Shown here: positions 1 to 27,700 of the stretch, in pieces
How positions within the stretch are numbered: the stretch's first letter is position 1
Layout of the letters: each line of letters begins with the position of its first letter
DNA from: Flaccisagitta enflata
Taxonomy: Eukaryota
Assembly: GCA_965153355.1 (NCBI GenBank)
Contig: OZ231126.1
Coordinates: forward strand, 31,496,001 to 31,560,000
Length of the DNA: 64,000 nucleotides
Direction of reading: 5' to 3'
Program-made: the position numbers and the translations under genes
The notes under the pieces: model-generated
Told to the model about the DNA's origin: nothing
Databases searched by the model: none
Seen by the model: the letters and a program-made list of their open reading frames with translations, nothing else

Positions 1-2907
1 TGCCAGCCCGCCATTCATTTGAAAGAAACTAAAAAGAACAATTTGCTAAAAGCTGTTCTGTAGCCCGCCATTGCTAAACCAGCCCGCCATCATTGAGAAA
101 ACATTCAATTCTTTTCTTGTGAGCCAGCCCGCCATTGCTAAACTGGCCCACCATCATTGAAAATACCTGCGATTCTTTTCTTGTTCCCCAGCCCGCCATT
201 GCTAAACCAGCCCGCCATTATTACAAATGCATTCAGTTCACTCTTGTAAGCCAGCCCGCCATTGCCAAATTGGCCCACCATCATTACAAATGCATTCAAT
301 TTTTTTCTTGTGAACCAGCCCGCCATTGCTAACTCAGCCCGCCATCAACACAAATGCACTTCATTCTTTCTTGTCAGCCAGCCCGCCATTGCTAAACCAG
401 CCCGCCATCATTGAGAAAACATTCAATTCTTTTCTTGTGAGCCAGCCCGCCATTGCTAAACTGGCCCACCATCATTGAAAATACCTGCGATTCTTTTCTT
501 GTTCCCCAGCCCACCATTGCTAAACCAGCCCGCCTTTATTACAAATGCATTCAGTTCACCCTTGTAAGCCAGCCCGCCATTGCCAAATTGGCCCACCATC
601 ATTAGAAATGCATTCAATTTTTTTTCTCGTAAACCAGCCCGCCATTGCTAACTCAGCCCGCCATCAACACAAATGCACTTCATTCTTTCTTGCCAGCCAG
701 CCCGCCATTGCTAAACCAGCCCGCCATCATTGAGAAAACATTCAATTCTTTTCTTGTGAGCCAGCCCGCCATTGCTAAACTGGCCCACCATCATTGAAAA
801 TACCTGCGATTCTTTTCTTGTTCCCCAGCCCACCATTGCTAAACCAGCCCGCCATTATTACAAATGCATTCAGTTCACTCTTGTAAGCCAGCCCGCCATT
901 GCCAAATTGGCCCACCATCATTATAAATGCATTCAATTTTTTTCTTGTGAACCAGCCCGCCATTGCTAACTCAGCCCGCCATCAACACAAATGCACTTCA
1001 TTCTCTCTTGTCAGCCAGCCCACCATTACTTAACCAGCCCGCCATCATTGAGAAAACATTCAATTCTTTTCTTGTGAGCCAGCCCGCCATTGCTAAACTG
1101 ACCCACCATCATTGAAAATACCTGCAATTCTTTTCTTGTTCCCCAGCCCGCCATTGCTAAACCAGCCCGCCATTATAACAAATGCATTCAGTTCACTCTT
1201 GTAAGCCAGCCCGCCATTGCTAAATTGGCCCACCATCATTACAAATGCATTCAATTTTTTTCTTCTGAACCAGCCCGCCATTGCTAACTCAGCCGGCCAT
1301 CAACACAAATGCACTTCATTCTTTCTTATCAGCCAGCCCGCCATTGCTAAACCAGCCCGCCATCATTGAAAATACCTGCGATTCTTTTCTTGCGACCCAG
1401 CCCGCCATTGCTAAACTGGCCCACCATCATTGAAAATACCTGCAATTCTTTTCTTGTTCCCCAGCCCGCCATTGCTAAACCAGCCAGCCATCATTGAGAA
1501 TACATTCAAGTCTTTTCTTGTGAGCGAGCCCGCCATTGCTAAACTGGCCAACTTCACTGAAAAGACCTGAGATTCTTTTCTTGTTCCCCAGCCCGCCATT
1601 GGTAACCAGCCCGCCATCATAGAGAATACAATCAATTCTTTTCTTTTGAGCCAGCCCGCCATTGCTAAACCACCCCGCCATCATTGAGAAAGCATTCAAT
1701 TCTTTTCTTGTGAGCCAGCCCGCCATTGCTAAACTGGCCAACCATCATTGAAAATATCTGCAATTCTTTTCATGTGACCCAGCCCGCCATTGCTAAACCA
1801 GCCTGCCATCATTACAAATGCATTCAGTTCACTCTTGTTAGCCAGCCCGCCAATGCCAAATTGGCCCACCATCATTACAAATGCATTTAATTTTTTTCTT
1901 GTGAACCAGCCCGCCATTGCTAACTCAGCCCGCCATAATCACAAATGCACTTCATTCTTTCTTGTCAGCCAGCCCGCCATTGCTAAACCAGCCCGCCATC
2001 ATTGAGAATACATTCAAGTCTTTTCTTGTGAGCGAGCCCGCCATTGCTAAACTGGCCAACCATCATTGAAAATACCTGAGATTCTTTTCTTGTTCCCCAG
2101 CCCGCCATTGCTAAACCAGCCCGCCATCATTGAGAATACATTCAAGTCTTTTCTTGTGAGCGAGCCCGCCATTGCTAAACTGGCCAACCATCATTGAAAA
2201 TACCTGAGATTCTTTTCTTGTTCCCCAGCCCGCCATTGCTGAACCAGCCTGCCATCATTACAAATGCATTCAATTCACTCTCGTAAGCCAGCCCGCCATT
2301 GCAAAATTAGCCCACCATCATCACAAATGCACTTCATTGTTTCTTGTCAGCCAGCCCGCCATTGCTAAACCAGCCCGCCATCATTGAGAATACATTCAAC
2401 TCTTTTCTTGTGAGCGAGCCCGCCATTGCTAAACTGGCCAACCATCACTGAAACTACCTGAGATTCTTTTCTTGTTCCACAGCCCGCCATTGCTAACCAG
2501 CCCGCCATCATTGAGAATACAATCAATACTTTTCTTGTGAGCGAGCCCGCCATTGCTAAACTGGCCAACCATTAGTGAAGATACCTGCAATTCTTTTCTT
2601 GTGACCCAGCCCGCCATTGCTTAACTGGCCCACCATCATTGAAAATACCTGCAATTCTTTTCTTGTTCCCCAGCCCGCCATTGCTAAACCAGCCCGCCAT
2701 CATTACAAATGCATTCAGTTCACTCTTGTAAGCCAGCCCGCCATTGCCATATTGGCCCACCATCATTACAAATGCATTTGATTTTTCTCTTGTGAATCAG
2801 CCTGCTATTGCCAACTCAGCCCGCTACATTACAAATGCACTTCATTCTTTCTTGTAAGCCAGCCTGCCATTGCAAAATTGGCCCACCATCATTACAAATG
2901 CATTTGA
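1..2907 (+). repeat. Satellite array, ~63-64 bp monomer (CCAGCCCGCCATTGCTAAACCAGCCCGCCATCATT + variable AT-rich tail), 5-monomer 318-bp higher-order repeat; left arm
   Basis: Monomer visible directly. Near-identical ORFs in the track recur at 775, 1093, 1411 and 1729 (318-bp steps). Array ends at a (CT)n run near 2908. Confidence 0.97.
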
Positions 2908-3015
2908 TCTCTCTCTCTCTCTCTCTCTCTCTCTCTCTCTCTCTCTCTCTCTCTCTCTCTCTCTCTCTCTCTCTCTCTCTCTCTCTCTCTCTCTCTCTCT
3001 CTCTCTCTCTCTCTC
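2908..3015. repeat. (CT)n microsatellite
   Basis: Pure CT run. Confidence 0.98.
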
Positions 3016-24731: not shown

Positions 24732-27700
24732 GTTACAAGAGTGAATTGAATGCATTTGTAATGAGGGCAGGCTGGTTCAGCAATGGCAGGCTGGGGAACA
24801 AGAAAAGAATCTCAGGTATTTTTAATGATGGTTGGCCAGTTTAGCAATGGCGGGCTTTCTTACAAGAAAAGAATTGATTGTATTCTCAATGATGGCAGTC
24901 TGGTTTAGCAATGGCGGGCTGGCTGACAAGAAAGAATGAAGTGCATTTCTCAATGATGGCGGGCTGGTTCAGTAAAGGCGGGCTGGTTCACAAGAAAACA
25001 ATTGAATGCATTTGTAATGATGGCTGGCCAGTTTAGCAATGGCGGGCTCGCTCACAAGAAAAGAATTGATTGTATTCTCAATTATGGCGGGCTCAGTTAT
25101 TTTCAATGATGGTTGGCCAGTTTAGCGATGGCGGGCTCGCTCAAATGAAATGACTTGAATTTATTTTCAATGATGGCGGGCTGGTTTAGCAATGGCGGGC
25201 TGGCTGATAAGAAAGAATGAAGTACATTTGTGTTGATGGCGGGCTGAGTTAGCAATGGCGGGCTGGTTTACAAGAAAAAAATTGAATGCATTTGTAATGA
25301 TGGTGGGCCAATTTGGCAATGGCGGGCTGGGGAACAAGAGTGAACTGAATGCATTTGTAATAGTGGCGGGCTGGTTTAGCAATGGTGGGCTGGGGAACAA
25401 GAAAAGAATCGCAGGTATTTTCAATAATGGTGGGCCAGTTTAGCAATGGCGGGCTGGCTCACAAGAAAAGAATTGAATGTACTCTCAATGATGGCGGGCT
25501 GGTTTAGCAATGGCGGGCTGGCTGACAAGAAAGAATGAAGTGCATTTGTGTTGATGGTGGGCTGAGTTAGCAATGGCGGGCTGGTTCACAAGAAAAAAAT
25601 TGAATGCATTTGTAATGATGGTGGGCCAATTTGGCAATGGCGGGCTGGCTTACAAGAGTGAACTGAATGCATTTGTAATAATGGCGGGCTGGTTTAGCAA
25701 TGGCGGGCTGGCTCACAAGAAAAGAATTGAATGTTTTCTCAATGATGGCGGACTGGTTTAGTAATGGCGGGCTGGCTGACAAGAAAGAATGAAGTGCATT
25801 TGTGTTGATGGCGGGCTGAGTTAGCAATGGCGGGCTGGTTCACAAGAAAAAAATTGAATGCATTTGTAATGATGGTGGGCCAATTTGGCAATGGCGGGCT
25901 GGCTTACAAGAGTGAACTGAATGCATTTGTAATAATGGCGGGCTGGTTTAGCAATGGCGGGCTGGGGAACAAGAAAAGAATCGCAGGTATTTTCAATGAT
26001 GGTGGGCCAGTTTAGCAATGGCGGGCTGGCTCACAAGAAAAGAATTGAATGTTTTCTCAATGATGGCGGGCTGGTTTAGCAATGGCGGGCTGGCTGACAA
26101 GAAAGAATGAAGTGCATTTGTGTTGATGGTGGGCTGAGTTAGCAATGGCGGGCTGGTTCACAAGAAAAAAATTGAATGCATTTGTAATGATGGTGGGCCA
26201 ATTTGGCAATGGCAGGCTTCAACACAGGGTGAACTGAATGCATTTTGTAATAATGGCGGGCTGGTTTAGCAATGGCGGGCTGGGGAACAAGAAAAGAATC
26301 GAGTATTTTCAATGATGGTGGGCCAGTTTAGCAATGGCAGGCTGGCTCACAAGAAAGAAGTGAATGTTTTCTCAATGATGGCAGGCTGGTTTAGCAATGG
26401 CGGGCTGGCTGACAAGAAGAATAAGTGCATTTGCGTTGATGGGCTGAGTTAGCAATGGCGGGCTGGTTCACAAGAAAAAAATTGAATGCATTTGTAATGA
26501 TGGTGGGCCAATTTAGCAATGGCGGGCAACACAGAGTGAACAGATGCATTTGTAATAATGGCGGGCTGGTTTTATCAATTGCGGGCTGGGGAACAAGAAA
26601 AGAATGCAGGTATTTTCAATGATGGTGGGCCAGTTTAGCAATGGCGGGCTGGCTCACAAGAAAAGAATTGAATGTTTTCTCAATGATGGCGGGCTGGTTT
26701 AGCAATGGCGGGCTGGCTGACAAGAAAGAATGAAGTGCATTTGTGTTGATGGCGGGCTGAGTTAGCAATGGCGGGCTGGTTCACAAGAAAAAAATTGAAT
26801 GCATTTGTAATGATGGTGGGCCAATTTGGCAATGGCGGGCTGGCTTACAAGAGTGAACTGAATGCATTTGTAATAATGGCGGGCTGGTTTAGCAATGGTG
26901 GGCTGGGGAACAAGAAAAGAATCGCAGGTATTTTCAATGATGGTGGGCCAGTTTAGCAATGGCGGGCTGGCTCACAAGAAAAGAATTGAATGTTTTCTCA
27001 ATGATGGCGGGCTGGTTTAGCAATGGCGGGCTGGCTGACAAGAAAGAATGAAGTGCATTTGTGTTGATGGCGGGCTGAGTTAGCAATGGCGGGCTGGTTC
27101 ACAAGAAAAAAATTGAATGCATTTGTAATGACGGTGGGCCAATTTGGCAATGGCGGGCTGGCTTACAAGGGTGAACTGAATGCATTTGTAATAATGGCGG
27201 GCTGGTTTAGCAATGGCGGGCTGGGGAACAAGAAAAGAATCGCAGGTATTTTCAATGATGGTGGGCCAGTTTAGCAATGGCGGGCTGACTCATGTTTTCT
27301 CAATGATGGCGGGCTGGTTTAGCAATGGCGGGCTACAGAACAGCTTTTAGCAAATTGTTCTTTTTTGTTTCTTTCAAATGAATGGCGGGCTGGCAATGGC
27401 GGGCTGAATTACCCTTACCAAAGGATAACTGGATAATCTTGACGTCGATGTTTAATTATTGGTACGGCAAAAGACCTCTCAGCAATTCACTACCAACACA
27501 CTAACTGTTATGCTTATCACACCTGATCATCAAAATGAGGTAATCAAATATCAAGCAAAGTATTGCAAAATGTGTAAGCAATCAAATCGTAATCTGTCTA
27601 CAGTATTTGCTGAGATTGAAAGGAAGCTAATACTTGTACATCAAACGTCAGTTACCAAATGAAAAATGTAAGTAACCATCCCATCCTTTAAGTAGTAAAA

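What the first reader, a model, noticed from the sequence alone, without database searches (positions are those of the whole stretch)
1..27417. Candidate ~27-kb foldback element whose arms are multi-kb satellite arrays
Seen: the first ~76 nt of the window, including a non-satellite spacer (CATTTGAAAGAAAC..AGCTGTTCTGTAG), are the reverse complement of 27320-27395. Both ends continue inward as the same 64/318-bp satellite in opposite orientation. The right end finishes GGGCTGAATTACCC|TTA. Established: GGG..CCC termini with a TWA target are typical of PIF/Harbinger, and foldback-type elements carry tandem arrays in their TIRs. Inference: one giant non-autonomous element with 3-5 kb satellite TIRs, or two family copies facing each other. 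Either way it would be a transposon end that generates and disperses a higher-order satellite.
Basis: partly seen in the sequence, partly recalled or inferred. Interest (0 to 1): 0.72.

Follow-up and report, generated by a model that had tools for sequence, protein, structure and literature searches.

The report
Giant foldback transposon carrying host DNA
A 27-kb mobile DNA element with mirror-image satellite arms has inserted here and duplicated nine bases of its target; it and a 37-kb sister copy likely moved as whole units carrying older host DNA (in the sister, a gene with an open reading frame), using an enzyme that was not found.

Summary
Observation confirmed; it is one element, but not PIF/Harbinger. 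It spans window -23 to 27,419 (27,443 bp). The real target duplication is 9 bp (AAAGGATAA). The element interrupts one LTR of a retroelement, and the other LTR is an empty site with a single copy. Arms are an 85-bp head plus 2.9 and 5.0 kb of a five-monomer, 318-bp higher-order repeat, the layout of Drosophila FB elements. The genome holds 17 such ends, including a 37.4-kb copy with its own 9-bp duplication and two empty sites, and a 364-bp miniature. Interiors differ between copies and showed no transposase. Four tested interior pieces look older than the insertion and lack a near-identical donor, so the unit likely moved with its cargo. The 37-kb copy encloses a three-exon, 868-codon gene model. 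No autonomous partner was found; Mutator-type is likelier than Merlin. This is a new member of a known kind (FB, Tetris, Rehavkus, Ising TE). The scan noted similar giant foldbacks in other genomes before.

The parts
1..61 (+). inner 61 bp of the 85-bp left terminal head (core motif AGCCCGCCAT and the non-satellite spacer). The first 24 bp of the head (starting GGTAAGGGTAATTCAG, G000:C1:31495977-31496000) and the left copy of the 9-bp TSD AAAGGATAA (G000:C1:31495968-31495976) lie just upstream of the window
62..2904 (+). left satellite arm: 45 monomers of 63-64 bp in a 318-bp ABCDE higher-order repeat, regular outside (97-100% to the first unit) and degenerate inside (about 86%)
2905..22346 (.). 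19.4-kb interior: microsatellites, decayed dispersed repeats and host-like sequence; no transposase detected; 3,129-4,825 is colinear in five blocks (71-87%) with C1:103.02 Mb
12449..18025 (.). young nested 5,577-bp element of another family (CACA...TGTG ends, 5-bp TSD CTCAA, inverted 10-bp satellite arms), 98% to a sibling on C4; Transib-like by recalled features
18307..18964 (.). young nested repeat, 99% to C8:59.55 Mb
22347..27334 (-). right satellite arm: 65 monomers, interrupted by insertions of about 573, 198 and 198 bp in its inner, degenerate part
27335..27419 (-). right terminal head, 1 difference in 120 nt from the left end
27420..27428 (+). right copy of the 9-bp TSD
27420..27948 (.). 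remainder of the interrupted LTR (TG...CA; it starts about 300 bp upstream of the window) into which the element inserted
31168..31968 (.). second, uninterrupted LTR = empty site, with a single AAAGGATAA at 31,434-31,442

Best explanation
This is one non-autonomous foldback-type DNA transposon of 27.4 kb, inserted into an LTR with a 9-bp target duplication, that likely moved as a whole unit with older host DNA between its arms, cut and pasted in trans by an unidentified, probably Mutator-type transposase. Shown: the ends, the 9-bp TSD, the empty site, the higher-order satellite arms, 17 family ends in the genome, a second TSD-flanked 37.4-kb copy with two empty sites, and interiors that differ between copies. 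Inferred: (1) the motif AGCCCGCCAT, present twice in the head and about twice per monomer, is the transposase-binding repeat, amplified into kilobase arrays (by analogy with Muta1); (2) arms become solo ends or swap partners through local hops, deletions and recombination in the arrays, and any two facing ends then act as a new element carrying whatever lies between them (up to about 14 kb of old DNA here once young nested inserts are subtracted; a segmental-duplication block with a gene in the C5 copy); (3) the enzyme is Mutator/Foldback-type (about 60%), Merlin (about 30%) or other (about 10%).
For: TSD and empty LTR. Second large copy C5:3780377-3817826 with TSD CCTTTTTTC and two empty paralogous sites on C7. 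Insertion is young: heads differ at 1 of 120 nt, TSD is perfect, the two LTRs differ at 25 of 797 aligned positions, 3.1%. Four of four old-looking interior pieces searched genome-wide have no near-identical full-length donor: best long hits 78-89%, whereas the nested element has a 98% sibling. The C5 interior is colinear at 81-94% with three duplicate blocks that lack the satellite and holds a GT-AG three-exon, 868-codon model without internal stops; its nearest paralog is 92%. Facing ends without a TSD (C8, 9.0 kb; C5:55.20-55.22 Mb, 24.4 kb) and ends without a partner exist. Three of four public runs, from two studies, carry the head, with loose ends at the same terminus and flanks unlike the 17 in the assembly (compared by eye). 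Architecture parallels FB: end, spacer, blocks of five repeats, 9-bp duplication (PMC7642927, passages).
Against: No autonomous partner: none of 22 MULE- or Merlin-like loci and none of 10 of the 20 Ulp1-protease loci carries the head or core motif, and a metagenome scan found 0 matches. Only 2 of 5 facing pairs have a perfect TSD; 1 has 7 of 9 and 2 have none. Donor searches scored only the best 40 candidates in three of four cases (40 of 64, 1,500 and 5,229). The LTR clock is uneven (0.7% left part, 4.4% right part), so conversion may have shortened it. No listed contig of the four runs bridges this junction (21 of 169 pieces shown), and no long reads were available. No donor scar was identified.
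Confidence: 0.78

Rival explanations
1. A smaller element inserted first and acquired the interior afterwards in place, by gap repair or recombination between satellite arms at different loci (the gap-filling route of Pack-TIRs).
For: Foldback arms are recombinogenic (PMC7642927 passages). Arm-plus-flank blocks are duplicated between loci without a TSD of their own: C5:3.81-3.82 Mb with C1:83.38-83.40 Mb, and C5:3802023-3805130 with C5:55194600-55197726 at 98.8%. Most single-copy animal Pack-TIRs arise this way (PMC8277862 passages).
Against: Copying leaves a near-identical donor; none was found for 4 of 4 window pieces or for the C5 gene. Reported Pack-TIR cargo has a median of 224 bp.
Confidence: 0.12
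2. Same element, but mobilised by a Merlin (IS1595/IS1016-type) transposase rather than a Mutator-type one. This concerns the enzyme only and does not exclude the best explanation.
For: Ends begin with GG and the TSD is 9 bp, both Merlin features; Merlin elements often hold tandem repeats (PMC8101967 passages). The genome has 15 Merlin-domain matches; one sits in a 1.9-kb element with GG-starting TIRs.
Against: Reported Merlin TIRs are 24-462 bp. The local Merlin TIR is unlike this one beyond the first bases, and none of 10 Merlin loci carries the head. Most foldbacks with 9-bp TSD have been assigned to Mutator (PMC4079207, PMC3169594 passages).
Confidence: 0.3
3. The interior, or the whole arrangement, is an assembly misjoin through the near-identical satellite arrays.
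For: Arms at different loci are 95-99% alike over 639 nt; long reads were not available; no listed contig bridges the junction.
Against: A misjoin would not restore a 9-bp duplication that matches an empty site at two separate loci; a wrong interior would need two misjoins. The arms are only 2.9 and 5.0 kb and have distinct monomer orders.
Confidence: 0.05
4. PIF/Harbinger element with a TWA target, or two independent copies facing each other.
For: The sequence reads CCC then TTA near the right end.
Against: GGTAA is shared by 11 of 11 exact termini; TAA/TTA are inverted, not direct; a 9-bp TSD and an empty site tie both ends to one insertion.
Confidence: 0.01

Closest known systems
FB (foldback) elements of Drosophila melanogaster and the composite Ising TE (PMC7642927 passages; PMC6431247 passage)
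   Same: End sequence, spacer, variable numbers of blocks of five repeats in mirrored orientation, 9-bp duplication; FB pairs can mobilise large host segments as composite elements.
   Different: Monomers here are 63-64 bp (FB: 27-31 bp); the middle is 19 kb and unrelated between copies (FB middles described there: about 320 bp); no complete inner element ends in the window copy. Sequence relationship was not tested.
Tetris of Drosophila virilis (PMC4079207 passages)
   Same: Non-autonomous, few complete copies, 8-10-bp TSD, tandem repeats in TIRs, no partner found, assigned to Mutator by TSD.
   Different: Tetris TIRs reach 1,735 bp and seeded free satellite arrays; here arms reach 5-6 kb, carry a five-monomer higher-order repeat, and no free arrays were found.
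Rehavkus (PMC12581902 and PMC6446971 passages)
   Same: 9-bp TSD; inverted termini with satellite arrays, sometimes over 11 kb in Tribolium.
   Different: No Rehavkus-type transposase linked here; cargo of host DNA was not described in the passages read.
Muta1 / Phantom / Tm1 Mutator foldbacks (PMC5499845, PMC3169594 passages)
   Same: 8-9-bp TSD; terminal motif plus subterminal repeats that strengthen transposase binding and excision. MULE-domain transposases exist in this genome.
   Different: Muta1 TIR is 145 bp; none of 12 local MULE-like loci carries these TIRs.
Pack-TIRs / Pack-MULEs (PMC8277862 passages)
   Same: Host DNA, including genes, enclosed between TIRs and TSDs.
   Different: Median cargo 224 bp with a parental copy nearby; here 14-30 kb with no near-identical parent found.
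Merlin superfamily (PMC8101967 passages)
   Same: GG termini, 8-9-bp TSD, internal tandem repeats in some families.
   Different: TIRs 24-462 bp; no Merlin transposase linked to these ends.

Membership tests
PIF/Harbinger | 3-bp TWA target duplication (recalled) | tested here: not met
   TAA is inside the TIR in 11 of 11 termini; the TSD is 9 bp
PIF/Harbinger | Harbinger transposase in a partner with the same TIRs | not tested
   no Harbinger family search was run once the TSD excluded it
Foldback-type element (structural class) | long modular TIRs: end, spacer, tandem repeats of variable number, mirrored | tested here: met
   23-86 monomers per arm in 15 arms
Foldback-type element (structural class) | target duplication with an empty site | tested here: met
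   window and C5 copy; only 2 of 5 facing pairs have a perfect TSD
Foldback-type element (structural class) | variable, non-coding middle region | tested here: met
   interiors differ between copies; no transposase
Mutator/MULE superfamily | 8-11-bp TSD | tested here: met
   9 bp; range from PMC6446971
Mutator/MULE superfamily | long TIRs | tested here: met
Mutator/MULE superfamily | MULE DDE transposase inside the element or in a partner sharing the TIRs | tested here: inconclusive
   none in the elements; none of 12 MULE-like loci has the TIR; searches are lower bounds
Merlin | 5'-GG termini and 8-9-bp TSD | tested here: met
   features from PMC8101967
Merlin | TIRs of 24-462 bp | tested here: not met
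   inverted similarity extends 2.7 kb; only the 85-bp head and the 364-bp miniature fall in range
Merlin | DDE_Tnp_IS1595 transposase sharing the TIRs | tested here: inconclusive
   none of 10 Merlin loci has the head; 5 more seen only within 1.5 kb or not fetched
Composite/macro-transposon (Ising TE type) | host DNA between two ends, moved under one TSD | tested here: met
   for the C5 copy; for the window. That it moved together with the ends is inferred from age, not observed
Composite/macro-transposon (Ising TE type) | each flank is a complete element | tested here: not met
   the window copy has two ends only; the C5 copy has one extra inner left end
Composite/macro-transposon (Ising TE type) | transposition observed, or donor scar identified | not testable with these tools
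   needs population long reads

The most novel reading that the evidence does not exclude
An active family of satellite-armed transposon ends works as a natural macro-vector in this animal. Solo ends pair up across 10-35 kb of ordinary chromosome and cut-and-paste it, whole intron-containing genes included, to new sites, while a five-monomer higher-order repeat evolves concertedly across chromosomes entirely inside transposon arms, before any free satellite exists.
Probability: 0.45. Interest if true: 0.65.

Novelty: new member of a known kind. Interest (0 to 1): 0.45.

Why it matters
Foldback elements as satellite seeds (Tetris, Rehavkus) and as composite carriers of host DNA (Ising TE) are known. 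This family shows both in one assembly with unusually clean controls: two very large insertions (27 and 37 kb) each verified by an empty site, a 364-bp miniature, unpaired ends, facing ends without a TSD, and an enclosed gene model. If whole-unit movement is confirmed, it is a natural case of gene relocation by cut-and-paste ends at about 60-130 times the median cargo reported for animal Pack-TIRs, and a tractable place to watch a higher-order repeat arise.

Tried and rejected
PIF/Harbinger reading: rejected. Partner search, all negative: PF12762 gave 15 matches, PF10551 gave 4, a local MULE protein gave 40, PF02902 gave 20. Flanks of 10 Merlin-like, 12 MULE-like and 10 Ulp1 loci held no head or core motif; the C6:41.1-Mb cluster and several weak hits were not fetched. 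tblastn of 7 local transposase frames against 9 regions holding the elements hit only a repeat-derived N-terminal stretch. Pfam on 38 stop-free frames of 95 aa or more (5 from the window) gave no transposase; shorter or broken remnants could be missed. Metagenome contigs: 0 matches to the terminus. Two older, one-monomer relatives of the head on C9 (8.83 and 61.45 Mb) had no partner end or transposase in the DNA fetched. The exon-like match at C1:103.02 Mb led to a decayed paralogous block, not a transposase. The whole-interior donor search was swamped by the nested family (26 of 60,365 candidates scored). The C5 gene's first exon found no homologue (longer proteins only), so 'Schlafen-like' rests on a sub-threshold Pfam hit (E 3.6e-4). 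Run X9 laid nothing, and most of the 24 listed runs share only about a quarter of the words, probably microsatellites. Paper searches for the terminal 12-mer (two unrelated virus-assay papers listed) and for foldback plus higher-order repeat showed no description of this family in the listings; most subscription papers and Repbase are not held. The Merlin paper's supplements were searched and gave no usable TIR table; two alignment files could not be read.
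Full report
Observation. The start of the window and 27,320-27,395 are reverse complements, and both run inward into the same satellite in opposite orientation (longest inverted alignment 2,743 nt at 86%). The window is G000:C1:31496001-31560000 of a 794-Mb, 9-contig genome, and the predicted mirror terminus lies just upstream.

The true ends and target. The element therefore begins GGTAAGGGTAATTCAG and spans C1:31495977-31523419 (window -23 to 27,419; 27,443 bp). 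It is flanked by a perfect direct 9-mer, AAAGGATAA. The chance of such a match is 5.6e-6 per pair and 7.6e-4 over the 136 pairs of termini. The flanks are two halves of one TG...CA long terminal repeat (-298 to 27,948). A second LTR at 31,168-31,968 is uninterrupted and has the 9-mer once. This empty site shows a single insertion with a 9-bp duplication, and rules out PIF/Harbinger and two independent copies.

Arms. Each arm is an 85-bp head with two copies of AGCCCGCCAT and a spacer, followed by 63-64-bp monomers that repeat this motif. Five monomer types, 73-86% alike, form a 318-bp higher-order repeat. The order is regular near the end and decays inward. The left arm reaches 2,904 (45 monomers); the right reaches 22,347 (65 monomers, three insertions). 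That the motif is the transposase-binding site is inference: in Muta1, more subterminal repeats strengthen binding and excision (PMC5499845, passages).

Family. Seventeen termini match with at most one mismatch; heads are 92-100% alike, plus one 83% relative. A satellite search gave 148 matches from 22 candidates, all in or beside these arms except one 55-nt hit at an old relative (a lower bound). Of five facing pairs, two have a perfect 9-bp TSD (the window; C5:3780377-3817826, 37.4 kb), one has 7 of 9 (a 364-bp miniature on C2, which folds back on itself, z = -22), and two have none (C8, 9.0 kb; C5:55.20-55.22 Mb, 24.4 kb). The C5 copy has two empty paralogous sites on C7. Four left ends on C5, C7 and C9 have no partner in 50-70 kb fetched inward, and C7 and C9 have no reverse end at all. 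Two arm-plus-flank blocks are duplicated between loci. In public runs, 3 of 4 laid (two studies) carry the head with loose ends at the same terminus and flanks unlike those of the assembly, and the LTR family continues with the empty-site sequence; no listed piece bridges this junction (21 of 169 pieces shown). This suggests other insertion sites in other individuals or close relatives.

Interior. No transposase was detected. A 5,577-bp nested element (12,449-18,025) has a 5-bp TSD in 3 of 3 copies with both ends seen and a 98% sibling; 18,307-18,964 has a 99% sibling. The rest looks old. Four pieces searched genome-wide had best long hits of 78-89% (three searches scored only the best 40 candidates), and 3,129-4,825 is colinear at 71-87% with C1:103.02 Mb. 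The insertion itself is young: heads differ at 1 of 120 nt and the LTRs, which predate it, at 25 of 797 (0.7% and 4.4% in the two parts, so conversion may bias this). Repeats that inserted after arrival should have near-identical siblings, and a copied segment should have a donor. Neither was found, so the old interior most likely came in with the arms. It may be captured host DNA or debris gathered at an earlier site.

The sister copy. The 37.4-kb element has heads identical over 80 nt, an extra inner left end, and between the two left ends a block colinear at 81-94% with three duplicate regions that lack the satellite. It contains a three-exon, GT-AG, 868-codon gene model without internal stops, with a P-loop and a sub-threshold Schlafen-helicase hit; the nearest paralog is 92%. 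Expression was not tested. This layout fits composite transposition by the outermost ends, but no age bound like the LTR pair is available there.

Enzyme. The genome has Merlin-like and MULE-like transposases, but none of 22 such loci, nor 10 of 20 Ulp1 loci, carries the head or motif, and metagenome contigs gave nothing. A 9-bp TSD fits Mutator (8-11 bp, PMC6446971) and Merlin (GG ends, 8-9 bp, TIRs 24-462 bp, PMC8101967). Foldback structure favours Mutator (PMC4079207, PMC3169594). I put it at about 60:30:10.

Comparison. The layout matches Drosophila FB (end, spacer, blocks of five repeats, 9-bp duplication; PMC7642927). Satellite arms over 11 kb occur in Rehavkus-like elements (PMC12581902), and FB-framed composite elements carrying hundreds of kb are known (PMC6431247). 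Animal Pack-TIR cargo has a median of 224 bp (PMC8277862). All papers were read as keyword passages only. The scan's earlier notes list 43-kb and 26.6-kb foldbacks in other genomes (not checked). Transib features and the PIF/Harbinger target are recalled, not from a call.

Verdict. A real, young, giant non-autonomous foldback insertion; a new member of a known kind, above average for its verified empty sites and likely host cargo. Interest 0.45.

Noticed in passing
window 12449-18025: Second, more abundant foldback-like family nested inside: asymmetric CACA...TGTG ends, 5-bp TSD in 3 of 3 full copies, inverted 10-bp satellite arms of 1.9 and 1.3 kb, more than 20 other loci; Transib-like by recalled features, no partner sought.
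   Followed up: partly
window 27420-31968 (first LTR begins about 300 bp upstream of the window): LTR retroelement on the minus strand (LTRs about 800 bp, TG...CA, primer-site-like and purine-rich sequences beside them); the interior frames tested had no Pfam hit. The LTR family is abundant in runs X1 and X22.
   Followed up: partly
G000:C5:3797010-3801330 (L014/L015): Three-exon 868-codon P-loop gene model with a weak Schlafen-helicase hit; a dispersed multi-copy family (56 matches) lying in older duplicated blocks; no homologue found for the N-terminal part. A similar-looking 1,243-aa frame lies at C9:53188455-53192183.
   Followed up: partly
G000:C2:66800297-66800660 (L150): 364-bp miniature of the family, almost pure arms, TSD 7 of 9; a natural minimal substrate.
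   Followed up: yes
G000:C9:8832631 and C9:61445697-61445760: Older relatives of the head with one monomer only (74-84% alike); the second lies between dynein-heavy-chain-like exons (recognised from recalled motifs). The first variant also appears as loose ends in runs X1 and X22.
   Followed up: partly
G000:C7:76354808-76356695 (L051): 1.9-kb Merlin element with 29-bp TIRs, a frameshifted transposase and an internal array of telomere-like TTAGGG variants.
   Followed up: partly
G000:C6:41.10-41.19 Mb: Cluster of about 17 short frames similar to the N-terminal zinc-finger part of the MULE transposases, in two facing orientations; possibly alternative exons of a domesticated gene.
   Followed up: no
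G000:C3:56.76 Mb and C5:12.22 Mb: Tandem Merlin-domain genes with altered catalytic residues behind zinc-finger-like exons; possibly domesticated.
   Followed up: no
G000:C4:3956148-3968962 and C4:4286775-4299526: Inverted duplication of about 13 kb at 97%, 330 kb apart, containing a truncated Merlin frame.
   Followed up: no
G000:C5:11.52 Mb, C3:70.96 Mb and three more loci: Very long open frames (2,139-3,632 aa) with a Ulp1 protease domain, probably a large mobile-element family; not classified.
   Followed up: no
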